A stretch of 64,000 bases of DNA. It comes from Eledone cirrhosa (taxonomy: Eukaryota). The position numbers and the translations under genes are program-made. The stretch spans positions 151,652,001 through 151,716,000 of the forward strand of contig OZ024741.1 of NCBI GenBank assembly GCA_964016885.1, written 5' to 3'. Shown piece after piece: positions 2,083 to 60,015 of the stretch. Under the pieces are notes generated by a model that worked only from the letters and a program-made list of their open reading frames with translations, made no database searches and was not told the DNA's origin. Within the stretch, counting starts at the first letter, position 1, and every line of letters starts with the position of its first letter.

Positions 2083-2266
2083 TTGGCAGTATCGGTAGAT
2101 GGTCGGACGCCATGCTTCCCAGCATAGTTACGTCCCTTTGCGGTCTGAGTTCAAATCCCGCCGAGGTTAACTTTGTCTTTCATCCTTACGGGGTCGATAA
2201 AATAAAGTACCAGTAATGTACTGGGTAATTGATGGCCTTGTGCCAAAAGTAGAAACAATTATTATT
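2083..2266 (+). mobile_element. tRNA-derived SINE, family A
   Basis: A-box-like TGGCAGTATCGG, B-box GTTCAAATCC, core CTTTCATCCTTACGGGGTCGATAAAATAAAGTACCAG and (TTA)n tail; about ten copies in the window. Confidence 0.85.
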
Positions 2267-8239: not shown

Positions 8240-8675
8240 ACATCTATCTATCTATCCATTTATCTAACAATCTAAATTTCTATGTTTATATATAAATATA
8301 AATATACTTAGGCAGGGTCATGCTGCCAATAACACACACGCACCTATTGGTTTTCACTTCAATTTATTCCAGATTTCTGGTTGGTAGGTTCAATAACCGG
8401 ATGGTTCTTTCTTTATTGTTAAAAAACTTTCGTCACACATTCTGCGACCTCCTCGGTGACTGATTTGTTATTTTTTTTATTTTGTACATGAATATTATTG
8501 GACAGAATAAAGGAGAGACAGAAAATAACAAATCAAGAGGTCATAGAAGGTGTGATGAAAGAGTTTTGACAATAAGTAAACAACCATCTGGTTATTGAAC
8601 CAACCAAACGGAAATTAGTAATAAATTGAAGTGAAAACGTGTGTTTTTATTGGCAGCATGACCGACCGTCCCTAA

Positions 8676-8769
<94 letters not shown>

Positions 8770-10307: not shown

Positions 10308-10414
10308 TATATATATAGGAACGAGTAGGACCCTAAGTATTGAGTACTTTGGTGCGTTATGGTCAACCTGGTTCCTTACCACATTTCCTTCGTTATATAT
10401 ATATATATGTATAT

Positions 10415-10880
10415 ATTTCGTTTCTGAATTTGTTTAGCAAGATTCTTTATCTGAAATCCTGTGTTGAAACCGATATTGTTATACTTTGGGAGGGTCATGT
10501 TGCCAATAAGAAACACACGCACCATTTGCTTTCACTTCATTTTATTATAATAAATTTATAAATTTAGGAATTTATAAATTTCCGGTTGATTGGTTGGTTC
10601 CACAACCAGATGGTTGTTTATATATTGTCAAAGTTCTTTCGTCACACATTCTGTGACCTCTTCAGTGACTGGGGATTCTTTTCTTTGTTTTTGTGCCTCT
10701 CCTTTGTTCTCGCCTACGCCATCTTGTTTCAGTGTGTGACAATATATAAACAACCATCTGGTTGTGGAACCAACCAACCAACCGGAAATTTATAAATTTA
10801 TTATAATAAATTGAAGTGAAAGCAACTGGTGCGTGTGTTTCTTATTGGCAACATGACCCTCCCAAAGTATAACAATATAT
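10415..10880. mobile_element. Short element (family Z) with about 160-bp inverted arms around a hammerhead-bearing spacer; probably Penelope pLTR-derived
   Basis: 10473-10630 is the reverse complement of 10737-10878. Related pieces lie at 5895-6045, 7355-7450, 8305-8680, 11810-11845 and 16330-16505. Confidence 0.75.
10627..10669 (-). ncRNA. Minimal type I hammerhead ribozyme motif
   Basis: Minus strand: GTCA CTGAAGA G GTCACA gaatg TGTGAC GAAA GAAC TT TGAC. Stems I and II pair, stem III is the short near-palindrome AGAACT, and there is one extra G before stem II. Confidence 0.7.
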
Positions 10881-11072
10881 GTATATACACACACATATAT
10901 ATATATGCATAAATATATATTTGTACATACATGCATGCACACTCACATATATGCATACATACATACAAATATACATTGTATGCATATATATTCCTATATA
11001 CACACATACACACATACACACATATATATATATGTTTGTATATGTATATATATGTATGCATATATGCAAGAG

Positions 11073-12262: not shown

Positions 12263-12417
12263 AGCTATTTATATATATATATATATACATATATATACAT
12301 ATATATATAATTGGAGGCTTAGTAAAATAGAATCTTTGGCAGTGTGCAAGCAAATTCGACCTACGATATGAATGAGTTAGCAAAGCATTCGACAAGGTAG
12401 GTCCTTAGAGTAATAAC

Positions 12418-16314: not shown

Positions 16315-17031
16315 AATATATATATATATTTCGTTTCTGAATTTGTTTAGCAAGATTCTTTATCTGAAATCGTGTGTTGAAACCGATATTGTTATACTTT
16401 GGGAGGGTCATGTTGCCAATAAGAAACACACGCACCAGTTGCTTTCACTTCAATTTATTATAATAAATTTATAATAAATTTATAAATTTATAAATTTCTG
16501 GTTGGTATATATGCATACTACTGTACGTCTGTATACATATATGTATACATATATGTATGTACGTATACATACATACTTACATTTAAGTAAGTGCCGTACT
16601 AAGAGTGAGAAATGAAATTTCGTTTCATCCTATTTCAACTTATCGTTTTCGGTGCGCCTGGCCGACTGAACTCACTCGATATGCAAATTAGGCTGCTCAG
16701 CCGTTAATTTTAGGAAAGTATATACTTTCGAACGTTCAACCATCTGGCAGAAGGGTATACGGTGCTGATGATAGCTAAGAAGCTTGAAACTAGTACATCG
16801 TTCCTGTGTCAGTGTTGAACAAAAAGGTGACGTGGTTGCCTTAACACAGTACGGCATAATCAGGCTGCCGTTTGTTTACAAACGGACAAAGCGGGCGTTA
16901 TAATAAACGTCCGCTAAACTGATACGTACATATATGTATGTGTACCTGTATGTATATATATATATATATATATATATGCATACTACTGTACGTCTGTATA
17001 CATATATGTATGTACGTATATGTACATACTT

Positions 17032-17144: not shown

Positions 17145-17331
17145 GGCGGTGGATTGTCAGTATCGGTAGAGGGTCGGACGCCATGCTTTGACACATAGAG
17201 TTACGGCCCTTGCCATTCTGAGTTCAAATCCCGCCGAGGTTAACTTTGCCTTTCATCCTTACGGGGTCTATAAAATAAAGTACCAGTAATGTACTGGTAT
17301 AATGCTGGCCTTGTGCTTAAAGTAGAAACAA
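17145..17331 (+). mobile_element. SINE family A
   Basis: Full-length match to 2083-2266. Confidence 0.85.
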
Positions 17332-17414
17332 TGATGTCTAAACAATGATTCTCTTGCCTAGTGATTCTGTGGACGCACAGCTGAAACAGCAAAGTAACAA
17401 GACTCAACACTCAA

Positions 17415-17590
17415 TACTTTTGGCACAAGGCCAGCAATTACCACGTACATTACTGCTACTTTATGTTATCGACCCCCGTAAGGATGAAAGGAAAAGTTAG
17501 CCTCGGCGGGATTTGAACTTAGAATGGCAAGGGCCATAATTCTATGCGTCAAAGCATGGCGTCCAACCCTCTACCGATACTGCCAATCCA
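17415..17590 (-). mobile_element. SINE family A, tail-to-tail with 17145-17331
   Basis: Reverse complement of family A. Confidence 0.85.
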
Positions 17591-17677
17591 CGTAAACATA
17601 ATATTGAATATTCAGGCTCTCCTTCACCAATGTCACAGATATATACATACATTCATACATACATACACACACACACG

Positions 17678-18489: not shown

Positions 18490-18680
18490 AAAAGGTATGA
18501 CCCCGATTGCAGAGCTCAAGCCGTTTCGACGGCTATTTCTAGACTGAAATAGCCGTCGAAACGGCTTGAGCTCTGCCGTCGGGGTCGGTCATACTTTTTC
18601 CTATTACCCACTCTACTACCCTAAGTATTGAGTACTCTGGTGCGTTATGGTCCATCTGGTTCCTAACCACATTTCCTTCG

Positions 18681-18683
<3 letters not shown>
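18486..18683. repeat. Family Y short repeat in (TA)n, containing a palindrome of about 115 bp
   Basis: 18487-18538 is inverted at 18546-18603. Other copies lie at 10316-10394, 40202-40345, 44738-44835 and 47676-47785. Confidence 0.85.
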
Positions 18684-20947: not shown

Positions 20948-23737
20948 TAAAAATGAAAAACGCCGATACCTGAAGAAGTTAGATGAGAGAAAAGATTCAG
21001 ACCAAACCAAACATCAGTCTATAGAGATATGAAGGGCAAAATAATCAGTATCTCTGAGGCCCCATCCCAGAAAGACATAGATTCCTTTTTGAGAAAAATA
21101 TGGTGTGAACAGAAGAATTTCAACCAAGATGCAGTGTGGCTAAGAGAAATCCGAAAGAACTATTGCTCCTACACTACAACAAAAACATACGAAATAAGTG
21201 AGGGTACCCTTGAGACTGTGATAGGAAAACTCCAAGATAAGAAAACACCAGGAAGAGACATGATTGTCGGCTACTGGTACAAAAAACTAATATTCTATCG
21301 GAGGTATCTTACTGACATCTACCAACAAGTTCTTAAGGGAGATACACTTATGCCAGAATGGTTGACATTAGCACAAACGTTACTGGTCCCCAAGAACAAA
21401 GACACCCACTTGGCAATAAACTACCGACCCATTGCATGCCAGAACCTGATGTATAAGATGTATACAGCCTGTCTGAACCTATTCCTTCAAGATCACTATG
21501 AAAATAATAACATCATCACAGATGAACAAACAGCTGGAAAGAAAGGGCTTTGGGATGTGCTGAACAACTCCTAATCAACAAAATTGCGATGTCGGAGGTG
21601 CGACAACTTAGGAGGAATATGACTACAATCTGGCTGGACTACAGGAAAGCTTTCGATTCTTGGATGATAGAGGCCCTCCAACTTGCTAAAGTCCCAGACA
21701 TTATTGTCAGAGCCATAGAGAGGCTGTCATCTTCTTGGGCTACTATCCTACTATCAGAGAGGGAGAACTCTATTTCCACTGATAAAATAAAATATTGCAG
21801 GGGTATATTTCAGGGGGACAGTCTCTCTGTGATATTATTCATCTTGTCATTAAACCCCTTGTCCTTTCTGCTCAAGAAATGTAAGGGATACATCATTGGC
21901 TCTCAGGAAGACAGAAATACGAACCTAACCCATAATTTCTTTGTGGACGATCTGAAACTCTATGCCAAGAACATGGATGGGATGAAGAAAAATGTTGACC
22001 TGGTTACAACGTTCCCAAAGGATATAGGAATGGAGTTTGGCCAAGATAAATGCTCATACATGACTGTAAAGCGGGGGAAAACAACAACCCAATCTAGCAA
22101 CATTGTCATCAATGGCCTAACTGTTTCACCGATATCTGATGAGGACTGCTACAGATACCTGGGGATAGATGAGAACATATCCTATAATGGCATCTGTTAT
22201 AAAGAACGCGTAACAGAGAATACTAAACCCGATTAAGAAAGATTTGGTCATCGGAACTCTCTGCGCAAAACAAAACAGTGGCTCACAATGTGTTTGCTGT
22301 GCCTGTCCTAACACCAACGTTTGGAATATTCAATTGGAAGATAGACGAAATCCGAGCAGTTGATGTTGGAACTCGAATAATACTGAACAACGCCGGAAAC
22401 TTCCACATCAACAGTGACATAGACCGCCTTTACTTGAAACATAAGCAGGGAGGCAGAGGCCTAACATCAGTCCAGACAACATTTGAATGTCGCATCATAT
22501 CTCTCCGACAACATCTACGAACCTCTAAGCGTAGGAGCCCGCTTCTCGAGCAAGTCTATCTGCATGAAACAGATAAGATCATGAGAGTTGGGAAGGAACT
22601 CCTTGAGAGATATTCCCTGTGTGATAATCAAAAACTCACACCCAGGGATGTCGCTCAGCAGTATCGCAGTGAACCCATGGATGAAAAACTGCATGCCTAT
22701 CAGCAAAATATCATGCATGGATATGTTGCCAGGAAGCTCCAGAGTGAGAGTAATATAGATAAGGAAAGTAGTCTATCTTGGACCAAGAACCGCTATATTG
22801 GCTCCCACTTTGAAGGATAAGTTTTTGCAATCCAGGAACAGGAGGTTAGCACGAAATACCTGATTCACAAAAGAGATAGGGATGCAGGCAAAACACCTAG
22901 ATGTGATAACAAGTGCAAACTCTGCAGAACTAACATCGAGGATATCACCCATGTCATCAGCAGCTGCCCAAAGATGTCATCGTGGTACTATCTACCTATG
23001 AGGCATGATGTAGTGGCCAAAACACTGTACAATGCAATTCGTAAAAAAGATAGCCCCGATAATAAACACATTAAAAGCTAGAACAATGTGGAAGACATCC
23101 ATGTACATAATATGAAAGAGTACTGGTGGAATGTTCCAGTAAAAATCCCAATAAAATGTAGGCATAACAGACCAGATATTATGATATGGGACAGGGAGAA
23201 GAAAACATGCACAGTAGTGGAAATTAGCTGCCCAGCAGATGCCAATATAATATCAATGATTAGTGAAAAGGAGAATATTTATGCAGAACTGATGAGAAAT
23301 CTGCAGATACTCCACCCTGATTACACCTTCAGATTTATGCCTGTGATTATTGGGGCACTGGGATATGTTAGTAACTGCCTCAATACAAATCTTGAGAAGC
23401 TAGGCTTCACAGGAACAGAAAGAACACAACTAGTTAGCAAATTACAAGTACAATCCATTAATGGAACATTAAAAATATGTAAAACATTCCAAAAATGTTG
23501 CATCTAATAACTGCATATACACATGTACAGATACAAAGCATATACACATGCACACATACAACTCAAAACATCCACATCCACACATACAATAACATCCATA
23601 TCTACACATGCAGACATACATACATATCTACCTACTTGATGTTGTGTAAATTCCAATGAGAGAGTCTTGTGTCTATGTTAGAAACCGACTCTCTCTCTAT
23701 TGGTAAAACTTTGTGAAATTATAAAACCAGAAGAAGA
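20948..23737 (+). mobile_element. R4/Dong-clade non-LTR retrotransposon (RT, CCHC, restriction-like endonuclease), 5'-truncated and disrupted
   Basis: NYRPIAC, WLDYRKAFDS, GIFQGDSLS, FFVDDLKLY, DIDRLY..GGRGL, CKLC..EDITHVISSC, RHD and NRPDI..VEISCP motifs across split ORFs 21029-23507; flanked by (CATA)n. Confidence 0.92.
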
Positions 23738-23869
23738 TACATACATACATACATATTTATAATGGTTGCATCTCGGTTCTGAGAATTGTCAACACTTGAC
23801 CTTTTCTTATACATAGGTGACACAGGCACGATATTTCAGCCCTACTAGGACTTAGATTCTTATCTGTAT

Positions 23870-24167
23870 ATGCTACAGTGAAAGAAAAACGAGAATGATA
23901 TGCTCACGCAACTCAGGGGAATATCGTTTAGATCAAGTGACGCCTGTGCTGGAAGCTTTTTTAAAGTGAAGTAAGACCTTGCACTGAACTAACCCCACTC
24001 TCTGAACAACGTTGAAACCTATCCAAAGAGAAGAATAGAGTGGCAAGTTTAACATCAGAGTTTTCTTTTTCCTAGAATGTTGTCCTAACAAGAACTATGG
24101 GTTTCTCACTCCCGGTGGGCTAACCGCCAGAACGGGCAACAAACCGATTATTTCAGTGTCCCCGTGC
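23870..24167. repeat. Diverged copy of the (CATA)n-associated leader module
   Basis: GCCTGTGCTGGAAGCTTTT...CAGAGTTTTCTTTTTCCTAGAAT parallels 20630-20800. Confidence 0.6.
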
Positions 24168-24274
24168 ATACATACATATTCACACACATGCGCACATACA
24201 TGCGCACATACATACACACATACATACACAGATACATACATAAATACCTACACACACATATACATACACACACA

Positions 24275-27200
24275 GGCAAAACGTATCAGATGTAAATTGA
24301 TACATCTAACGGAATTGAGTGATACTACAAATACAGCCCTTGTAGACAACCACCCCACCTTCACTGACAGACAAAGAGAATGGCCAGCTAAATCTAACAG
24401 TGAACAGCTCACCAACAATTTTGCTGAAATCCATCCCACTTCCACTGAAGAACAGCGAGAAAGGTCAGCTAACTCTAGTAGTAATTGTCACCACATCAAC
24501 AACGAGGCTGAAATTCATGACTCTACTGAACAAACAGAGCACCAAATACTTGTGGACACCCTACAAGTGATATGGAACGATATGTTTCGATAGATACACA
24601 GCCTTAATGTGAGTGACAGACCATACAACACCAGAATCAGTAAAGAACCCACTAAATTGGAATTGGAAGCGGTGAACGAAATAGCTGGCAATTATCTGAA
24701 GGCTATACGATCTAAAGGTGTAGAAACGACATTTGAAATGCTTAATGTTTTGTTATATGTTTCAGCTGTCACATTGCTATCATATAACACACATCTAAAA
24801 CCATGCAATCAAGATACAAACAGAAAGCCTGAACCAGCGTGGATGCGTAATTTAAAAAGCAAAATTTTGTCCCTGAGACGAAGTATCTCACACATCGCAG
24901 TCGTTATGAAATGCAACATAGAGAGCAACTTCACACGACACCAGGAAGACCTAAAATAAAAGTTAGAGAGACGATTTGGAGATACCAAATTTAAAACTTT
25001 GAACTTCAAATTACACCAGTTGAAACAACAACTCATAGCTACAACAGAAAGACTAAAATATAAGTCAACAGCACATATACGACAAGTGCTAAATAGATTG
25101 TTTGCCAGAGATCCTAAATCAGTTTATTGCAGCTTCGGCGGCAAAAGCTCAATCTCTATAAACGACACCCCTTCAAAAGAACAGGTTGAGAGCTACTGGA
25201 GATCTGTATGGCAAACGGATGATGGATTCAACAGACAAACTAATTGGCTAAAAGAACTGGAACAGGACTACTGCCAACATGTCTAGACAAAACAATATGA
25301 CATAGATGGGTCAATACTGGAAACAGCTCTACAGAAAATGTCGAATAGGAAATCGCCAGGCCCAGACCTCATTACAGGATACTGGTTGAAGAATTTCACT
25401 TTCTATCGGCAAGATTTCATACGGCTGTTTACAGAAACCATTAAAGGCACACAAGAACTGCCCAGATGGTTATCAACTGCCACTACGCTCCTCATTCCCC
25501 AAAATAGCCAAACCACCCTTGCTAAAAATTACCGCCCAATAGCCTGCCAAAACATCATGTATAAATTATATACTGGGTGCCTTAACCTGTTCTTACAAGA
25601 TCTCTGTGCTACCAACAACATCATAACACCTGAGCAAGCTGGTGGAAAGAGGGAGGTGTGGGGTTGCATAGATCACCTACTAACTAACAAAATGATTCAG
25701 GAAAAAACAACAAAGAATCGCAGAAACATGACTGTGGTGTGGCTGGACTATCAAAAAGCATTTGATAGTGTACCTCATGGGTGGATTATTAAGGCTTTGC
25801 AGTTAGCTAAAGTCCCACAACCATTGGTAGCTGCTGTTGAACGCCTGACCAAGAACTGGTACACCAATTTGATCCTTAGAGGTGAGAAGGAGCAAGTTAA
25901 GACTGATAAGATACATTACCAGAAGGGCATATTTCAGGGTGATAGCTTGTCAGTGCTACTCTTCGTTCTCTCACTGAATCCACTATCTTACCTACTCAGG
26001 AAACAAGGTGGACAAAGAAGTGGGCCCAGAAGTATCGCCCATCGTTTCTTTGTTGATGACCTGAAGTTGTATGGGCCAAATGTTAATGACATCAAGAAAC
26101 AATTGGACCTCATTACACAATTTTCAACCGACAACAAAATGAAATTTGGTGAGTCTAAATGTGCATATTTGGCAGTAAAACGTGGAAGAGCTGTGCCCTC
26201 CTCTAGAAATCTAGAGATGAACGGCCTGACAATACAACCTCTACAGTCAGGCGACAACTACAGATATTTTGGACAGGATGAGAATGTCAGATATGATGGA
26301 CACATAAATAAGGAGAGAACCAGAACTGAATACCTCAGAAGAGTAAAGAAAATATAGTCATCAGAACTGTCAGCGTACAACAAATACATTGCCCACAATA
26401 CTTATGCTGTGCCAATTCTAACGCCAACATTTGGCCTACTGAACTGGTCATTGCAAGAACTAAGTGAGATGGATGTTAGAACTCGAAAACTTCTCAGTGT
26501 TACTGGGAACTTTAACGTCAATGGTGATGTGGATAGGCTATACTTCTCACGCAAGGAAGGTGGCCGGGGTCTAAAATCAATATTAACAACATATGAGACC
26601 CGGATAGTAACACTGAAGCAACACCTTCAACAGAGGAAAAAGGTTGGCAACCATCTTGCCCAGGTTTATGAGCATGAAAAAAAATATCATTAGAATAGCG
26701 ACTGATCTGGAGGAGAGATACGGAATAAAGCCTGATATAATTCTCTCACCGAGAGAAATCGGGAGATCCTATTCAATGTTCAAACAAGATTAAAAAATTG
26801 ACCAATTTACAGAAAAAGTTGTGCATGGATACTTGAGGCGTAAAACACAGACCATAGAGGGGATAAACCACTCAAAAAGCCTGGCATGGAGTTCCGACAG
26901 GTTTATGACATCACACCTTGAGGGATATCTCTATGCAATACAGGAAAAAGAACTCCCTACCAAATATCTGCTGCACAAAAGAGGAGGGCCAGCAGCTGAC
27001 AATAAATGTAGGCTATGTAAAACAAAGATCGAGGATGTAAGCTACATTGTTGCCAGCTGCGAAAGAATGTCATCTCGCTACTACCTCCCATGAGACACGA
27101 TGGGATAGCTAGAACCATCTGGAACGCACTTCGGAAAACAAAATTAACAACAAACGAGGAAGAATATATTGAGACTAAGGAATACTGGTGGAACCTGAAA

Positions 27201-27650
27201 ATAAAAACTGCCACCAAATTAAAGCACAACCGGCCTGATATTGTTGTTTGGGACCACACATTGAAAACGTGTTCTGTTGTGGAGATCAGCTGCCCACTTG
27301 ATGTAAACGTTGTCAGAAAAATACAGGAGAAGGAAGACATCTACGGACCATTGATGAGGAGTTTACAAATCCAGTATCCAAGATACACCTTTAGCTTCAT
27401 ACCCATCATTATTGGAGCTACGGGTTATATACCAACCCGCTTGGTCCAAAGTATGACTGAACTTGGATTTGCGGACAAAAAGCGCAGCTCCCTAATTCAT
27501 AGTCTACAAATGGCTGCGATAGCTGGCACCTTCAAAATTTGCAAAACATTCTTGCGATTCAAGGGATGACAATTTCTTTTCTTTTACAACCTTGCCACCA
27601 GGAAGGTGGCCGGTCAAAACAATATACTCGAAATTAAGAGAAAGAGATAA
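24275..27650 (+). mobile_element. Second, diverged R4/Dong-clade LINE, near full-length ORF broken by stops and frameshifts
   Basis: ORFs 24609-27569: KPEPAWMRNL, KSPGPD, NYRPIAC, WLDYQKAFDSVPH, GIFQGDSLS, FFVDDLKLY, CRLC, RHD and NRPDIVV..VEISCP; ends in (CATA)n. Confidence 0.92.
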
Positions 27651-35524: not shown

Positions 35525-35593
35525 ATATTTTATCTGATGAGGACGTACTGTTGAAGATATCTCAGTACCTCTGAAATATGTATAATAAAATAT
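35525..35593 (+). ncRNA. Type I hammerhead motif with 9-bp stem I
   Basis: ATATTTTAT CTGATGA GGACGTACTG...CAGTACCTCT GAAA TATGTA TA ATAAAATAT; flanked by inverted repeats 35440-35476 and 35597-35633. Confidence 0.75.
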
Positions 35594-37790: not shown

Positions 37791-38417
37791 GTTAGACTGA
37801 TCCTTAGACATTAATCTGCAGCCCAATTTTTAACCTAATTAATCAACTTCGGAACATTCTAGTGACGTCATTGTATTGATGTACCAGCCTCTGTTTCTTT
37901 ACCACTGTCTAACCATTCCACCTAAATTAGATAGATATACTACCCTTATAATACATAGATTAGTCACGCTTTTTACAATTCGATTCATTAGTCACCTGAA
38001 GGAGTAGCCATTAAAAACTATACATTACTCGGTGGAGAATATTGAGACCCGAGAACACCTACAACTAATACATCTGCCATATAAGCATTCAAGGTGCATC
38101 GTCTACCTGCACTCAGGTGCTTACACTTTACGTGTAACAACGGGTTGTACAACTCTCCCCTACAGTACTTGATATAATCGTCACATTTGAATGTCTCGGT
38201 TTATAATATACACATGTATATATATGTGTGTGTGTTTGTGTGTTTGTGTGTGTGTGTGTGTGTGTGTATGTGTGTGTGTGTGTGTGTGTGAGTGTGCGTG
38301 TGTGTGTGTGAGTATGTGTGTGCGTGTGTGTGTGAGTGTGTGTGTGTGTTTGTGTGCATGTATTGTTATAATATTGCCAGAAATATCAAATTCATCGCCG
38401 TATATATATATATATAT

Positions 38418-39232
38418 CAACTAGAAATAGATTGACATATATATATATATAAAATAAACATATGGAACAATCACAGGGAATAATTTGTAAAGAATGTAAG
38501 CACACATAGCGAGGTAGGTAACCAATTAAAGTTTAACTAGAACTTCAAATATATATGTTAATCTATTTCTAGTTGATATGAAATGCTCGGATCTATTCAT
38601 TCGAATCTTTGAGCTTATTCTACAGTGGATATGGCGCATGTCTCTCAGACATGACAACCCTTAATTTAATTTTTGATATATATACGGACCCTTAATTGTA
38701 GAGCTAACTCAGTTGAATGGACTAGACTGCTATTTCTAGCTGTCGATAATCCTATTCACGCCACTGGGATGACGCTGTGCGATGTGTGTATTTTTTAAAA
38801 ATGCAACACGTGGTTCGAGTCATTCACAGATTTGCATTTGCTTTGTAAACGCAGATAGTTATTTCTTCTCCTTTGGTGACCATCCAGGATTGGACTACTG
38901 TGATTTACGGATTAATTGGTGAAATATATTTTTTATTTAAAGAAATATATACAAAGGAGACTAATCATTTTAAAAGGTATGTATATTTGAAGTTCTAGTT
39001 AAACTTTAATTGGTTACCTACCTAGCTATGTGTGCTTACATTTTTTACAAATTATTCCCTGTGATTGTTCCATATGTTTATTTTATATATATATATATAT
39101 ATGTCAATCTATTTCTAGTTGATATGAAATGCTCGGATCTATTCATTGGAATCTTTTAGCTTATTCTACAGTGGATATGGCGCATGTCTCTCAGACATGA
39201 CAACTCTTAATTTAATTTTGGATATATATATA
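38418..39232. repeat. Local inverted plus direct duplication
   Basis: 38418-38555 is the reverse complement of 38980-39122, and 38560-38682 repeats directly at 39106-39230. Confidence 0.85.
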
Positions 39233-39547: not shown

Positions 39548-40434
39548 GGGTATACACATATATATATGGGTATATATATATATATATATATACCCATGCA
39601 TCTATGTGAGCACGTGCGTGTTTTCTAGGAGTGTGTGTGTGTAGGTGTGAGCATACGGATTAACACACCCTTTCTTAAACCTAGATCATACGGTCGCATA
39701 CACTCCACCTATTAACACTACATCCTCACCCAATATACACCACAGAGAAACGTAACAAACGTCTTAGAGTCTAAATGCAGCACCAGCAGCTGTGAAGATA
39801 AATAAATACATTTATCAGCCTAATTCTTTAACACATGTAAATCGAAGCGATTAACCTTTGTTTAGTAATTTGACACTTTGGCCCAGTGACCTAACCCTGC
39901 CAAATAATACTATAGTGTAGCATCTCCCACACTTTGCTTGCCTACAGCGACTGTTGTTGTATACATATAATCGCTTGTAGCCGGCGTGCTATCATGTGTT
40001 CCAAACAATGGTGTGCATATCAAAAACAAAAACAAAATATTACACCTTAACACCTATCGGATGACATCACACCAAATTATTATTATGCAATCACGTTGAT
40101 GTCTTTGAAATGCGCATGACAGGATTATATAATAAACAGATGATGTATACATAAAACCGTCTCTCTTCTTTATTATGTATATATATATATATATATATAT
40201 ATAACGAATGTGTTGTGGTAAGGAACCAGATGGACCATAACGCACCAGAGTACTCAATACTTAGGGTAGTAGAGTGGGTAATAGGAAAAAGTATGACCCC
40301 GACGGCAGAGCTCAAGCCGTTTCGACGGCTATTTCTGGACGCAGAATATATATATATACATATATATTATCATATATACACATATATATGTATTTACACA
40401 CACACACACACGCATACGCACACACACACACACA

Positions 40435-40504
<70 letters not shown>

Positions 40505-40772
40505 AGCAAATGAATGAATGAAGGAGTTACTTGTAACTCCATTCATTCATTTACTTATTCCTGTTCTGCTTGAACAATATACTAAATATTAAATCTTCTC
40601 TAATATTTAACTCTGCTAACCCAAACATTGAGCACACTCCGCTTCGGTTATTGGCAGTCAGTAATTTGTATCGCACTTCTCTGTATCTATCTATGTCCTC
40701 CTCCCATACGATACTTATACCCTATTATATATATATATATAATATATATAATATATATATATATACCCTATT

Positions 40773-40807
<35 letters not shown>

Positions 40808-40966
40808 AATTGGAGCTCTGAAATAGCAATATATATATGAATGTATATATAATGTATTTTACAATACACTTTATGCTTAATTAAAAGCATTTTGAAGACC
40901 GTATGCTATTGTTTTAGATTAGTGACAAACTCACTTACTTTAATCTCAGCAAACAGAGGGAGATAA

Positions 40967-41011
40967 AGCCGACAAGGCCTTGTTTCGCATTTTTTGCTGC
41001 TTATCAAGACT
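40967..41011 (-). ncRNA. Minimal hammerhead, U3-A8 variant (left-arm copy)
   Basis: Minus strand: AGTC TTGATAA GCA gcaaaaaa TGC GAAA CAAGGCCTTG TC GGCT. Confidence 0.75.
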
Positions 41012-41451
41012 AACTACTCCCTCCTGTCTACTGAGATCACTGATGTTATATTCTTATAAAATTCTAGTAAATAATCAGGAACTGATTATACAGAGCGGTT
41101 GCCGGTCAGGCAGAAATTAAAAATTAGAATTGGAGCTCTGAAATAGCAATATATATATGAATGTATATATAATGTATTTTCCAATACACTTTGCTGAGAT
41201 TAAAGTAAGTAAGTTTGTCACTTCTCTAAAACAATAGCATACGGTCTTCAAAATGCTTTTAATTAAGCATAAAGTGTATTGCAAAATACATTATATATAC
41301 ATTCATATATATATTGCTATTTCAGAGCTCCAATTCTAATTTTTAATTTCTGCCTGACCGGCAACCGCTCTGTATAATCAGTTCCTGATTATTTACTAGA
41401 ATTCTATAAGAATATAACATCAGTGATCTCAGTAGACAGGAGGGAGTAGTT

Positions 41452-41496
41452 AGTCTTGATAAGCATAAAAAAATGCGAAACAAGGCCTTGTCGGCT
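41452..41496 (+). ncRNA. Minimal hammerhead, U3-A8 variant (right-arm copy)
   Basis: AGTC TTGATAA GCAT aaaaaa ATGC GAAA CAAGGCCTTG TC GGCT; stem III is the perfect 12-bp palindrome ACAAGGCCTTGT with a GTC cleavage triplet. Confidence 0.8.
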
Positions 41497-41780
41497 TTAT
41501 CTCTCCCTGTTTGCTGAGATTAAAGTAAGTGAGTTTTTCACTACTCTAAAACAATAGCATACTGTCTTCAAAATTCTTTTAATTAAGCATAAAGTGTATT
41601 GCAAAATACATTATATATACATTCATATATATATGTATATATATTAGAAAGTGAGGTTTTTTTACAAAATGAAAAATAACCGAGGTGCCCTACACGAGTG
41701 AAAGTATAAAGAAAAAAAGGTGAAATCGAAAATGCAACTGGAGTCTTATGTTTTAAAACATATATATATTTATTTGGTTC

Positions 41781-41901: not shown

Positions 41902-42223
41902 TGTGAATGGTTTAGATTTTTATACATATCTATATATATATAAATCTAAACTATTCACATTGTTACTCATCAGACAATTGATGTAAGCAGTAATCATGCA
42001 ACTGATTTCTTTATATATATATGTGTATGTATGTGTGTATGTGTGTGTGTGTGTGTGCGTGCGCGTGTGTGTTTGTATGTGTGTGTGTGTATTTAATACT
42101 ACAAATACTCAACTTACACTTTGCGTATTGATAGCTATTTTCTTTCGTTATCACAACTAATATATATATAGACGTATACATACACAAATATACACACAAA
42201 TACACACGCTCACACACACACAT

Positions 42224-42262
<39 letters not shown>

Positions 42263-42347
42263 GTAATAAAAATAAATTTGAAGACTAAAACCCAAAGAGG
42301 GCTCGATAAGGATAAATATATATCAAATATATAAGAACCGTAGAGAA

Positions 42348-42587
<240 letters not shown>

Positions 42588-44710: not shown

Positions 44711-44870
44711 ATGGAGGCGGTATATATATATATATATGAAAAATTCGGGACCCCGACGGCTAAGCTCAGCCGTCAGGGTCGAATTTTCATATTACCCACT
44801 TTACTACCCCAAGTATTGAATACTCTGGTGAGTAATAGTCTAAATGATTTTTACCGCTTCCATTTTGTTG

Positions 44871-44879
<9 letters not shown>

Positions 44880-44960
<81 letters not shown>

Positions 44961-47679: not shown

Positions 47680-47782
47680 AATGAGTAGGACCCCACCCGT
47701 TCCTATTACCCACTCTAATACCCTAAGTATTGAGTACTTTGGTGCGTTATGGTCCACCTGGTTCCTTACCACATTTCCTTCG

Positions 47783-47833
<51 letters not shown>

Positions 47834-56009: not shown

Positions 56010-57655
56010 AAAGTATTGGCCCTCGGACCATTACTTCACAAATTGGAGACAAATAGTGGCGTCCCACGCGAACTGGGATGCGGAAGATCCGTATCAGCTT
56101 ACGCGGACGACGTCACCGTGGTGGTGTCGAGCACTAGACACGTCCAGATGCGCGGCACCACTCTCAAGGAATACGAAGCGGTGACAGGAGCAAAGATAAA
56201 CCAGGAAAAGTCGGTGGGCTTGCAGCTTGGCACCTGGAAAGGCAAGTCCATGCCGTCCGACAGCGTCGTGGGGCACTGGACGGAAGGACCGGTTAAATTG
56301 CTAGGGATATGGTTCGGTCCGGACCTCCAGATGGAAAACAAACTGGAGTGAGGTGACGAGCAGGATGGCCTCTCTTACCGCCTGACCGTCGTACATTGCC
56401 CCCGCCGAACTCTGACCAAAATGGAGCACCTCCTCTTCCGCTTTGTGTGGAATGGACGTGCTCCCATGGTCAGACAATCCATCTGCTGTCAGCACACGTT
56501 GCATGGAGGACAAGGCATCCGTAAATGATGATGCACAAACATGCGCTGAGGCTGCGACATCTCTAGTGCTTCCTTGACGGTGAACAGGTGTGGTCACCAT
56601 TTGTCAGACGCGTTTTTCCCCCAGCTCGTTTCATTGACGGAGCTGCAGTCCTGGATCAGGATAAGACCAAGGGATAGAGCTTGGAAGCGGGAATATCTCC
56701 AAGCGCTCACCACCCTCAACTAGCTGGGCACTAGTATCGGTTGAACATCCACTTCCCGCGTTCTATAGAGGACTAATGGACGGGAAGAGCGACAACGTTC
56801 TCGGGGAGACCCTGGGCGTTGAAGACGATCAGCTTTGCACTATCTTCGACAGAACTTTCAGCCCGGGAAACCTATGGAAACCTAGAAACCCCTGGTCTGG
56901 CAGTGCTAGTGCGGGGTGTTGCCAGTTCGAGATAAGTTGTTCAGGCACAGAAGTGGTCAGCTGAGCCTGTCCGAGATCCGTACAGGTCGACGAAATCGTC
57001 GTGCACGCATTTGTTCAGTGCCCGAGAATTGCTGACTTGTGGAGCTATGTCGAACAGTTGCTGTCGCGTGTAAACGGATCCGGTTATCGACTGAGTCGAT
57101 TGTGCAGAAAGCCCCACCGCCCTCCTTTAAGGGGGAGGAAGGGCAGGCACTTTTCATTTGCTCGGTGGCCATGGAGAAATAGATTGTGTGGTGAACAAGG
57201 TTGAAACGATTGAAGACAGACACTTTCTTCTCCGGTGAATCCCTGATTAACTTTTTCGAGTTACACTTGAAGAGAAAAATCAGGGTGGAGAGGCAAGTGT
57301 TGTCTTCTACTAAGTTTGTTGAAAGGTGGGTGAAAGTGGTGAGTCTGGTCCAAGTGAACGAGTCCGCTCAGGGTATGTGCCAGTAGACTGAGGAGTAGGA
57401 GAACTGAGAGAGGGCGCTTGCCCTGGTGGTCAGGGTGATCGTCGTCTTTTGTGTGGTTTTTCTCTACGTGTGACCCTCGGAGGTTTCCCCCCTATTGTGG
57501 AATTTTTGTTGTTTGAATTTTTTAATTTGTTTCTTCACATTTCTATGTTTTTTTTCTTATATTTTTTTTACACGACCAAAACCCACTTCGTATCATACTG
57601 TACCGTTCTGTGCCGTCTGTAATGTTTTTGTTCATGTTAGCCCTTGGGGCCAATG
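56010..57655 (+). mobile_element. Tx1/L1-clade LINE, 5'-truncated and decayed (RT 3' half, C-terminal zinc-binding region, 3' UTR)
   Basis: VSAYADDVTV, SGAK-type TGAKINQEKS, KLLGIWF and HAFVQCP motifs. Confidence 0.85.
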
Positions 57656-57667
57656 AAGAAACCGTTA

Positions 57668-60015
57668 TCATTATTATTATTATTATTGCATTTATCTTGC
57701 TTTATGTTCATACGAGTTATCACCAAGTCACAACCAGTGACCGCAAGAGACGACAAGGTCCGCCATGTTCAAGAAAGAACATACATGCACACACATGCAT
57801 CTTGTGATGTATTTATATTGACAGAATCCTCCTTAGTATATGGGCAGTTCCCATTAGTAATATCTTCTGTATTTCTTCTATACGCGGGTTTCCTGGGATT
57901 TGCGATAAGTAATCATTAGACCCCTTATGTATCATTCCTAGAGGGCCTTCAACCGCTGGTATTGTTTTCGTTCTCAACTTCCACATTTTTCCAATTTCTA
58001 TCTCCAGGTCTTTATACTTGCTCAATTTTTCAAATGTTTTTATAGATACATTCTTGTCTATTGGAACGGACATATCAATTAGCAGGCATACCCTCTCTTA
58101 AAGTCCTTCAGTATTATATCAGGTCTATTTGCATCTATTTTTCGGTCTGTTTGGAAGCTAAAATTCCACAAGATTGAGATGTGATCTTTTTCAAGTATGG
58201 GAGGTGGTTGATGCTCCCACCAATCCTTTTGACGGGGCAGGTCAAAATTCTTACACATTATCAAACGTATGTATTGTGCAGCTCTGTGGTGCCTGTTTAG
58301 GTATTCGGTTGGAGCTATAGGACTGCACATTGAAATTATATGATCAATGGTCTCTGGTTGTTTTTTACATACACGGCATAATGGGTTACATCCATTTTTT
58401 ATTATGTTGGCTTGGTAATTTTTTTGTTGGAAGGCACTGATCTTGTGCCGATATAATCAGTCCTTGAGTCTTCAATTTCAGTCCAGAGGATGCCAACCAC
58501 TGATGGGTTAAAGTTTTGTCAACATCAGAATTTTTAGCTCTTTCTGGGTATTTTCCATACAGAAGCTTTTCTTGCCATTTCTTAGTCAGTTTCTGTAGCA
58601 GTTCTTTCTTTGCAGTTACTTTTACCTGCTTTGCTTTTTCTGTGTTTTTCATTTCAGCAGTAAATGGAACTTCTGAAATGTGTAGTTCATTACTGTATCT
58701 TTGTGCATCTTTTGTAATGGAGTATGATCTTTTGATGCTTTCATGTTTCAAAATGAGTTTGATCATCCAATCATGTGATTCCCTTAGATATGTAGATAAT
58801 CCAATTGTTGCAGTTTTCAAAGCAATATCTAACTGGATTAATCCACATCCCCCTTCTTTCCCAGGGAGATATATTCTATCTGTATCTGCCTTAAGGTGAT
58901 GCTTTCTGTGTATGGTTAAGAATTTTCAAATTTTTGTATCGAGGTTACTGATCTCTGTGCTTGACCAGTTGATGACACTGTAACTGTAGGTTACTACTGG
59001 TATAGCAAGCGTGTGTATGGCATCGATCCTATTCCTTGCATTCAATTTCGTTCTTAAGATTGCTCTTACTCTGCGGTAACATTCCTTCCTTATCCATTCC
59101 CTCATTGTCGAGTGCTTGATTCCGTCTCCTTCACAAACACCTAGATATTTGTAAGATTCCTCTTGATCAAGTTCTCTTATCACATTCCTCCTATCAAGAT
59201 TAATGCCTGATCTTTTCAGCAGCTTTCCTCTGGTGAACGTGGCTTTGGCGCATTTATCTAGTCCAAACTCCATTTTAATATCATCTCTGAACTGCTTCAC
59301 AGTGGATAATAGCCCTTGCAATTGCTCATCATTTTTTGCAAATAGTTTCAGGTCATCCATGTAGAACAAGTGAATAATGGTTTTGTCATAGACTTTATAT
59401 CCATGTTTTGTTTCATTGAGCATTTTATTTAATGGTATAAGTGCGATGCAGAATAAAAGCGGTGATAAAGAGTCACCCTGAAAAATTCCACAATTAATAT
59501 TAACTTCTCCAGTGATTTTTTTTCATTATTCAACAGGAGTGTCGTTTTCCATGTCTTCATACTGAATGACAGGAACCTCCTGACAACGGGAGATATTTTG
59601 AAAATCTCTAAACACTTTTCGATCCAACTGTGTGGCAAGCTATCGGATGCTTTTTTGTAATCTATCTAAGCAATTGATAGATTTTTGTGTCTATTATGAC
59701 AATCTTCCAGTATCATTTTGTTAACCAAAAGCTGATCCTTTGCTGGATTTTCTAAGAGCTAAACGCAGACGTTCAACTGTTATATTTTCCCATGTCTGTT
59801 CCTCAGGGTCAGTTCTATCTTTCATTTGTCTGTCTATACATTGGGCATGTATATTATGAAATTTTTCTTCGACCCAGATTTTTTCCCAGAATTCTTGCAC
59901 TTCCTTCTTGGGGGGTATTGATTTAGCAGTTATTGTTGACTTGCCAATTTTTCTGTAGAAGTTTCTTTGGTTGTTTTTTAACATATTATTGTCCTTATAG
60001 AATCTAGATCGTTTA
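57668..60015 (-). mobile_element. R4/Dong-clade LINE, disrupted, ending in a (TAA)n tract
   Basis: HLFYMDDLKLFAK, FGLDKCA, YKYLG, ISAQDQ, ANRPDII and KLSKYKDL motifs; (TTA)n on + at 57668-57688. Confidence 0.9.

What the first reader, a model, noticed from the sequence alone, without database searches (positions are those of the whole stretch)
40807..41632. 320-bp ribozyme-bearing monomer arranged both in tandem and inverted (retrozyme-like)
The structure is a-b-c-a followed by b'-a'-c'-b'-a', with exact 320-bp periodicity on both arms, one hammerhead per unit, no ORF and TA tracts on both sides. Greater-than-unit-length copies are what reverse transcription of a circular or tandem RNA would leave, and the inversion resembles Penelope pLTR integration. 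The near-identical arms suggest it is young.
Basis: partly seen in the sequence, partly recalled or inferred. Interest (0 to 1): 0.82.

Follow-up and report, generated by a model that had tools for sequence, protein, structure and literature searches.

The report
Two-armed hammerhead repeat with Penelope footprint
This is one of many copies of a 320-base non-coding repeat with a predicted self-cutting RNA motif, sitting as two back-to-back arms that were likely copied from one RNA, possibly a circle, by a borrowed Penelope-type retrotransposon enzyme; the kind of element is already known in animals.

Summary
The structure is real. Two head-to-head arms (386 and 445 nt) of an ORF-less 320-nt cyclic unit share 3 nt at their joint and end outward in TA repeats, 22-32 nt apart on the unit. 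Each arm holds one type I hammerhead with the known U3-A8 core swap. Paired changes in other copies support helices II and III, and the unit is multi-copy (1,490 contigs in one run). Both arms share rare alleles, which points to one template, and both read across the cleavage site, so that template was periodic: a circle or an uncleaved multimer, not distinguished here. The layout is the textbook Penelope insertion (partial tandem, inverted copy, tail, TA target). Best reading: a non-autonomous, retrozyme-like element moved by a Penelope-type enzyme. This copy is a dead end (one ribozyme per arm) and about 1.6% decayed. Cleavage, circles, family-wide fixed ends and the partner element are untested. 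A predicted 6-bp helix that uses U3 blocks the monomer's ribozyme. The scan reported this pattern before on other DNA of this genome, including a 320-bp U3-A8 array (AI notes, unverified). New member of a known kind.

The parts
40807..41192 (-). Left arm, 386 nt = 1.21 units, sense on the minus strand, 3' end at 40807
41190..41634 (+). Right arm, 445 nt = 1.39 units, 3' end inside a TA run (uncertain by about 10 nt)
41190..41509 (+). One full 320-nt unit, 32.8% GC, no ORF; folds as a circle with z about -5.6
41190..41192 (.). 3-nt overlap shared by the 5' ends of the two arms (microhomology at the head-to-head joint)
   Evidence: sequence
41452..41496 (+). Type I hammerhead motif, U3-A8 core (41456-41462, 41477-41480), helix II 41463-41476, helix III 41481-41490, predicted cut after 41492
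   Evidence: paired changes in other copies
40967..41011 (-). Second copy of the hammerhead motif, predicted cut after 40971; helix II is 3 bp here
41480..41491 (+). Perfect 12-nt palindrome across helix III (predicted dimerisation site; the 10-nt core gives a duplex of -16.1 kcal/mol)
41453..41486 (+). Predicted blocking helix 41453-41458 with 41481-41486, which takes U3, U4 and G5 of the core
   Evidence: pair probability 0.71-0.95 right arm, 0.27-0.50 left arm
41426..41520 (+). Long stem (about 20 bp) closing the ribozyme domain; mirror copy at 40943-41037
   Evidence: (z -6.5 and -5.4)
40807..40828 (-). Tail: 22 nt (up to 32 if the TA run is target-derived) present at the outer end of the left arm only
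40726..40806 (.). (TA)n tract at the left end, the likely target
41635..41645 (.). Short TA remainder at the right end; no target-site duplication discernible

Best explanation
This is a single insertion of a multi-copy, ORF-less 320-nt repeat with a predicted type I hammerhead ribozyme, laid down as two head-to-head, more-than-unit-length arms in a TA tract, likely by a Penelope-type reverse transcriptase-endonuclease supplied in trans. Steps: (1, inferred) an array elsewhere is transcribed into a periodic RNA, either a unit-length circle made by hammerhead cleavage and ligation or an uncleaved multimer; (2, inferred from PMC11167929) the Penelope protein cuts both strands of AT-rich DNA and each DNA end primes reverse transcription at one of two internal sites, here 142 and 164 nt downstream of the cleavage site; (3, shown) each arm reads across the cleavage site and on past one full unit; (4, shown for one template type, inferred for one molecule) both arms carry the same rare alleles; (5, inferred) the two cDNA ends were joined through the 3-nt overlap; (6, shown) at least 13 changes now separate the local copies. 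(7, predicted) In the monomer a 6-bp helix using U3 hides the catalytic core, and the helix III palindrome would let two ribozymes activate each other as a dimer. I put the circle at about 45% and the uncleaved multimer at about 55% within this reading.
For: Geometry. It matches the published Penelope layout, with partial tandem, inverted 5'-truncated copy, a 30-40 bp tail at one end and (TA)n targets (PMC8557442; PMC3846280), and two internal start sites that define the tail, with both strands cut and extended (PMC11167929). Multi-copy: 1,490 contigs in run X1 (232 at 99% or more, 408 at 95-99, 603 at 90-95, 247 under 90), 4,216 RAD reads in X13, 34 and 14 contigs in X4 and X5 (4 of 15 listed runs laid). 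Ribozyme fold: helix II pair 41465/41474 flips A-U to U-A (X1 depth 2,599 at both; X13 239 of 483 and 243 of 478 reads; one contig in X5; absent in X4); helix III pair 41483/41488 goes A-U to G-C (X13 39 of 530 and 35 of 527; one contig in X5); 41454 turns U-G into C-G in 96-99.7%; none of the 40 variant rows shown falls on a core position. One template: both arms carry alleles that are rare in the family at 41454 (0.3% of X1 depth, 4% of X13 reads) and 41470 (5%, 12%). Period lies in the template: both arms have the same sequence across both end sites, and diverged copies in X1, X4 and X5 (records 1-3, 9, 17) read through 41336|41337. Two strand-switch joints at other places (9 and 4 reads, X13) suggest other two-armed copies. 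U3-A8 is a described variant of Penelope hammerheads (PMC4209133).
Against: No Penelope ORF was found to tie it to: 0 GIY-YIG hits in 29 + 104 ORFs; the 4 RT hits look like LINEs (one checked, R2-like). Family-wide fixed ends were not tested, because reads were laid only on 41316-41600. 41493 G>A (64% of X1 depth, 34% of X13 reads) opens the first pair of helix I unless a partner change is among the 38 rows not shown; one-base gaps at 41496, 41498 and 41504 occur in 116-222 of about 500 X13 reads. Linkage of the paired changes is inferred from equal depths, not seen read by read. The active fold is 4.8 kcal/mol above the free fold and helix III has near-zero pair probability in the monomer. 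Column 41282 reads C, C on the right arm and G, T on the left, which needs two changes at one site. Shared rare alleles would also follow from a local DNA duplication. The tail (22-32 nt) is at or below the published 30-40. X1 may be the window's own source. RAD ligation chimeras could explain the strand-switch joints.
Confidence: 0.72

Rival explanations
1. Stump of an autonomous Penelope-like element: the 320-nt period arose once, when the enzyme stopped and jumped back to its start site, and the unit is simply the pLTR region of a coding element.
For: Short 5'-truncated tandem and inverted stumps are the usual form of Penelope copies (PMC8557442; PMC4209133), and U3-A8 was described in such elements. 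A sister family shares 41333-41387 and continues into 200-255 letters I could not read beyond the first 30.
Against: A jump would put the joint at an arm's own end site; both arms have the same period and the same letters across both sites, and diverged copies in three runs read through 41336|41337. In X1 the share of laid contigs that run on into unlike sequence is 0, though these contigs are short. No ORF remnant in the unit.
Confidence: 0.11
2. One arm was inserted, and the second arm and the partial repeats were made later at DNA level (fold-back replication or repair), so the two-armed form says nothing about reverse transcription.
For: Shared rare alleles in both arms and the 3-nt overlap fit template switching; TA tracts are fragile.
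Against: The left arm holds 22 nt at its outer end that the right arm's end lacks, no flanking DNA is duplicated, and the window holds several unrelated short two-armed elements in TA tracts, which points to a recurring insertion route.
Confidence: 0.1
3. The unit is moved by a LINE (R2-like elements are in the window) by twin priming, or is a satellite whose hammerhead is no longer functional.
For: RT fragments in the window are LINE-type; the monomer is predicted to misfold; only 1 of 9 frog retrozymes tested cleaved in vitro.
Against: No poly(A) tail; twin priming inverts two parts of one template pass and does not give two overlapping more-than-unit arms with outward 3' ends (recalled); paired changes in helices II and III point to selection on the fold.
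Confidence: 0.05
4. Assembly artefact (fold-back chimera or collapsed repeat).
For: Such structures trouble assemblies (PMC8557442); no long read was laid.
Against: The arms differ at 11 of 364 positions and every segment has alleles of its own; a chimera gives identical arms.
Confidence: 0.02

Closest known systems
Animal non-LTR retrozymes (Cervera and de la Pena 2020, PMC7229834, parts 2-4 of 6 read; Li, Clavereau and Pollet 2026, bioRxiv 10.64898/2026.07.22.740005, parts 1-3 of 5 read)
   Same: 150-450 bp unit, GC under 50%, type I hammerhead, no ORF, many copies, self-paired circle, Penelope proposed as mover. Mussel units of 350-390 nt are the nearest mollusc case and some are predicted to self-block the ribozyme.
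   Different: This copy has one ribozyme per arm, not two in a row; it is head-to-head with uneven ends (the word 'inverted' does not occur in the main text of PMC7229834); U3-A8 core; circles and cleavage are not shown here.
Insertions of endonuclease-positive Penelope-like elements (Pen2a_Av, PMC3846280, passages; clade overview, PMC8557442, passages; PAc Poseidon in vitro, PMC11167929, parts 1-2 of 4)
   Same: Partial tandem plus inverted 5'-truncated copy head-to-head, short overlap at the joint, tail at one end, sense hammerhead upstream of the ends, AT-rich or (TA)n target, no clear duplication of the target.
   Different: No RT/GIY-YIG ORF; the whole unit is 320 nt; tail 22-32 nt; ends 142 and 164 nt beyond the cleavage site, further than in PAc.
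U3-A8 hammerhead variant of Schistosoma mansoni Cercyon elements (PMC4209133, parts 1-2 of 4)
   Same: Same compensated core swap, short helix I, palindromic 15.2-16.2 region suited to dimers, pairs of motifs 100-700 bp apart on opposite strands.
   Different: Here helix II is short (3-4 bp), helix III is a 10-12 nt palindrome, and a stem of about 20 bp closes the domain.
Non-autonomous Chlamys elements such as MRC1 (PMC8557442, passage)
   Same: Short non-coding Penelope derivatives with pLTRs and head-to-tail copies.
   Different: Algal, and the Chlamys clade mostly lacks a canonical hammerhead.

Membership tests
Type I hammerhead ribozyme | Core C/U3-U-G-A-N-G/A8-A, G12-A-A-A and U16.1-H17 with three helices, helix I open | tested here: met
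   U3-A8 variant as in PMC4209133; descriptor written from recall
Type I hammerhead ribozyme | Helices supported by compensatory change | tested here: met
   one double change each in helices II and III; helix I mixed (41454 for, 41493 against)
Type I hammerhead ribozyme | Rfam model at gathering score | tested here: not met
   HH9 17.4 and 16.2 bits against 52; I read this as poor coverage of the variant, not as absence
Type I hammerhead ribozyme | Self-cleavage at the predicted site | not testable with these tools
   monomer predicted blocked
Animal non-LTR retrozyme | Unit 150-450 bp, GC under 50%, no ORF | tested here: met
   320 nt, 32.8% GC, longest frame 58 codons
Animal non-LTR retrozyme | Many genomic copies | tested here: met
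Animal non-LTR retrozyme | Stable self-paired fold of the circular unit | tested here: met
   z -4.3 to -5.6 for 4 of 4 unit cuts, 56-59% paired; antisense also -3.1 to -4.0, and most of the signal lies in the ribozyme stem
Animal non-LTR retrozyme | Expressed as circular RNA | not testable with these tools
   needs RNA work
Animal non-LTR retrozyme | Tandem arrays of the unit somewhere in the genome | tested here: inconclusive
   partial tandem here; 4 reads join the unit's end to its start but could come from this locus; long 320-bp U3-A8 arrays only in AI notes
Active retrozyme as defined by Li et al. 2026 | [quoted passage not shown] | tested here: not met
   one per arm, on opposite strands; this copy is not filed as an active retrozyme
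Autonomous EN+ Penelope-like element | ORF with RT and GIY-YIG endonuclease | tested here: not met
   none in the element; no GIY-YIG hit in 29 + 104 ORFs of the window
Penelope-type insertion (works like) | Partial tandem with an inverted 5'-truncated copy, head-to-head | tested here: met
Penelope-type insertion (works like) | Tail at one end only (30-40 bp in print) | tested here: inconclusive
   22-32 nt at this locus; constancy across copies untested
Penelope-type insertion (works like) | AT-rich or (TA)n target | tested here: met
Penelope-type insertion (works like) | Sequence shared with the pLTR of an autonomous partner | not testable with these tools
   no genome held

The most novel reading that the evidence does not exclude
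The unit is a circular RNA that one Penelope enzyme dimer copied from both ends of a DNA break, from two fixed start sites, each arm rolling past the ligation junction; and the U3-A8 core swap is part of a switch, because U3 completes a 6-bp helix with the helix III palindrome that keeps the monomeric circle from re-cutting, while the same palindrome activates cleavage in dimers and multimers. This would supply both the missing mover of animal retrozymes and a self-pairing block that the founding paper found lacking in most of them.
Probability: 0.25. Interest if true: 0.68.

Novelty: new member of a known kind. Interest (0 to 1): 0.38.

Why it matters
How animal retrozymes move is proposed, not shown. 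A copy whose two arms come from one template, cross the cleavage site and end at two nearby sites names the exact RNA positions to test with a purified Penelope protein, and the predicted blocking helix gives a simple assay for how a circle avoids re-cutting. This locus alone is a small, partly decayed example with one ribozyme per arm, so it adds a family and a hypothesis rather than a new kind of system.

Tried and rejected
Whole-genome search: no genome held. Rfam at gathering score: 0 hits in 64 kb. Other copies of the unit in the window: none. No RNA holder listed among 15 runs; this says nothing on expression. Molecule ends in RAD run X13 (41338, 41345, 41400, 41403, 41584) looked like element ends but 5 of the 6 listed fall on AATT sites (the sixth is 41590), so I read them as restriction cuts and rejected them. 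Depth profiles were not used as copy number or truncation profile. Ribozyme motif in metagenome contigs: 0 matches. Look-alikes in the scan's notes by sequence: 0; by place near: 0; relatives: one unrelated hit sharing 4 of 180 words; by words: 0. Target-site duplication: none of 4 nt or more at the exact ends. Pol III box A and B patterns (recalled): none; two TATA-like matches lie in the TA-rich part and are not taken as evidence. Circle versus multimer from the variant pattern: no column of the 44 four-copy columns separates upstream from downstream units, too few to decide. A stem-loop at the end sites as in PAc: the fold there is weak and not AC-rich. Relaxed hammerhead hits at 35534 and 41813 are poor and probably chance. 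RT fragment at 56010: no solved relative; read as LINE-type from recalled motifs.

Full report
Observation. The 828 bases at 40807-41634 are two inverted arms of one 320-nt cyclic unit. The left arm is sense on the minus strand (41192 to 40807, 386 nt), the right arm on the plus strand (41190-41634, 445 nt). Their 5' ends face each other and share 3 nt; their 3' ends point outward into TA runs. The period is 320 without gaps on both arms, and the arms differ at 11 of 364 positions. The left 3' end lies 22 nt further along the unit than the right, or up to 32 nt if the unit's own TA run at the right end came from the target. No other copy lies in the window. The unit has 32.8% GC and no frame longer than 58 codons.

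The ribozyme. Each arm holds one type I hammerhead motif, predicted cut after 41492 (+) and 40971 (-). My descriptor (written from recall) hit 3 places in 64 kb, these two and a poor one at 35534, and 3 of 2,000 shuffles. Rfam gives nothing at gathering score and weak HH9 hits, probably because the core has U3-A8 in place of C3-G8, a variant described in Schistosoma Penelope elements (PMC4209133). Helix III is a perfect 12-nt palindrome, the feature that lets such motifs work as dimers. A stem of about 20 bp closes the domain (z -6.5 and -5.4).

Other copies. I laid 4 of the 15 listed runs on 41316-41600 only, so the outer ends and the inner joint are untested in reads. X1 gave 1,490 contigs over a wide range of identity, X13 4,216 RAD reads, X4 34 and X5 14 contigs: a multi-copy family with subfamilies. 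X1 may be the window's own source. Of 78 variant rows 40 were shown. For the fold: pair 41465/41474 of helix II flips A-U to U-A with matching counts in three runs; pair 41483/41488 of helix III goes A-U to G-C; 41454 changes U-G to C-G in nearly all copies; no shown row hits a core base. Against it: 41493 G>A (64% of X1 depth, 34% of X13 reads) opens the first pair of helix I, one-base gaps occur at 41496-41504, and a C is inserted in the palindrome in 84 of 532 X13 reads. Linkage is inferred from equal depths. The molecule ends in X13 fall on AATT sites and are not element ends.

One template, periodic. Both arms carry alleles that are rare in the family (41454: 0.3% of X1 depth, 4% of X13 reads; 41470: 5%, 12%), and at seven further sites where 27-83% of the family has another letter all local copies agree. 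The 12 columns that differ among local copies are private to one copy, apart from column 41282, which needs two changes; the total is at least 13 changes in 831 bases. The arms therefore come from one template type, followed by modest decay. Each arm starts 142 or 164 nt downstream of the cleavage site, crosses it and passes one full unit, so a linear self-cleaved monomer cannot be the template without a jump. A one-off jump is unlikely, since both arms read the same across both end sites and diverged copies in three runs read through 41336|41337. A circle and an uncleaved multimer both fit; the four-copy columns are too few to separate them. In vitro, the Penelope protein PAc used mainly unprocessed RNA, which keeps the multimer at least as likely.

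The mover. Partial tandem, inverted 5'-truncated copy, a tail at one end and (TA)n targets are the published marks of endonuclease-positive Penelope elements (PMC8557442; PMC3846280). PAc cuts and extends both strands of AT-rich DNA and starts at two internal RNA sites whose spacing is the tail (PMC11167929). Applied here, each end of a break in the TA tract primed at one of two sites, and the two cDNAs joined through 3 nt. This is inference: no Penelope ORF is in the window (0 GIY-YIG hits in 29 + 104 ORFs; RT hits LINE-type), and no genome was available. A sister family shares 41333-41387, next to the left end site, and then diverges (7% of X1 depth, about 61-70% in X13, X4 and X5); it may mark a shared recognition segment or the partner, and I could not read it.

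A possible switch. In the predicted ensemble the core is hidden by a 6-bp helix, 41453-41458 with 41481-41486 (pair probability 0.71-0.95 right arm, 0.27-0.50 left; helix III near zero), 4.8 kcal/mol below the active fold. The helix needs U3; the family's usual C at 41454 would make it all Watson-Crick, and the helix III variant keeps it by a wobble (pairing rules applied). Of all 256 palindromes of this form, 16 give such a helix and 2 give it with five or more Watson-Crick pairs. The founding paper notes that most animal retrozyme circles are not self-blocked, some mussel ones excepted. The alternative reading is plain misfolding.

Known kinds. It works like an animal non-LTR retrozyme (PMC7229834) inserted like a Penelope element, and a 2026 preprint already argues that the former derive from the latter. 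It is not an autonomous Penelope element, and this copy fails the preprint's test for an active retrozyme (two ribozymes in a row). I found no paper describing two-armed, tailed retrozyme insertions or a cephalopod retrozyme in searches; 'inverted' is absent from the main text of PMC7229834 and occurs once in the preprint (listing; place not seen). No supplements were read, and they may hold such cases. Subscription papers are not covered.

Earlier notes. The scan's AI notes describe the same pattern for many families in this genome, which they call a cephalopod (350 of 495 notes fit the search words), including a decayed 320-bp U3-A8 array on the same piece. I could not confirm that it is this family: the sequence look-up returned nothing. 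I had noted the outward ends and the tail before seeing them; the wording 'both ends of one break' I took from them. The host label is untested here.

Verdict. Real, multi-copy, mechanistically legible, and of a known kind. Interest 0.38; the switch plus circle reading would deserve about 0.68 at a probability of about 0.25.

Noticed in passing
window 38414-39230: A second two-armed element: left arm 38414-38556 inverted to 38979-39125, right arm 38549-39230 with a 546-nt period, 95-96% alike, ends in TA runs 105 nt apart on the unit. No hammerhead core and no Rfam hit: a candidate ribozyme-less or decayed family with the same layout.
   Followed up: partly
window 42312-42481: Short head-to-head pair with a near-palindromic joint, left arm about 40 nt longer than the right, ending in a long TA tract: a typical tailed stump.
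   Followed up: partly
window 40502-40558, 41902-41959, 8287-8696, 10460-10891, 16452-16496: Further inverted pairs beside TA or CA tracts, 73-86% alike; two-armed insertions look common here.
   Followed up: no
window 10631-10665 (minus strand): Minimal hammerhead-like motif with C3-G8 core and an extra base before helix II, inside the inverted element at 10417-10891.
   Followed up: no
runs X1, X13, X4, X5 laid on 41333-41387: An abundant sister family shares about 55 nt next to the left end site, then continues into a uniform different sequence of 200-255 letters.
   Followed up: no
window 20987-27569 (+) and 58079-59522 (-): Three broken LINE copies with RT; the one checked is closest to R2 proteins. 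Another RT fragment at 56010-56348.
   Followed up: partly
window 2085-2259 and copies near 12411, 17149, 17415, 36207, 39314, 55909, 60011, 61052, 61197: A SINE-like repeat of about 180 nt in at least ten copies, 77-95% alike, one pair inverted at 17149-17591.
   Followed up: no
window 10330-10393, 18546-18681, 40214-40340, 44756-44880, 47700-47795: Another short dispersed repeat, 93-98% alike in most pairs, flanked by TA tracts.
   Followed up: no
unit column 41282: The four local copies read C, C (right arm) and G, T (left arm): two changes at one site, unexplained.
   Followed up: partly
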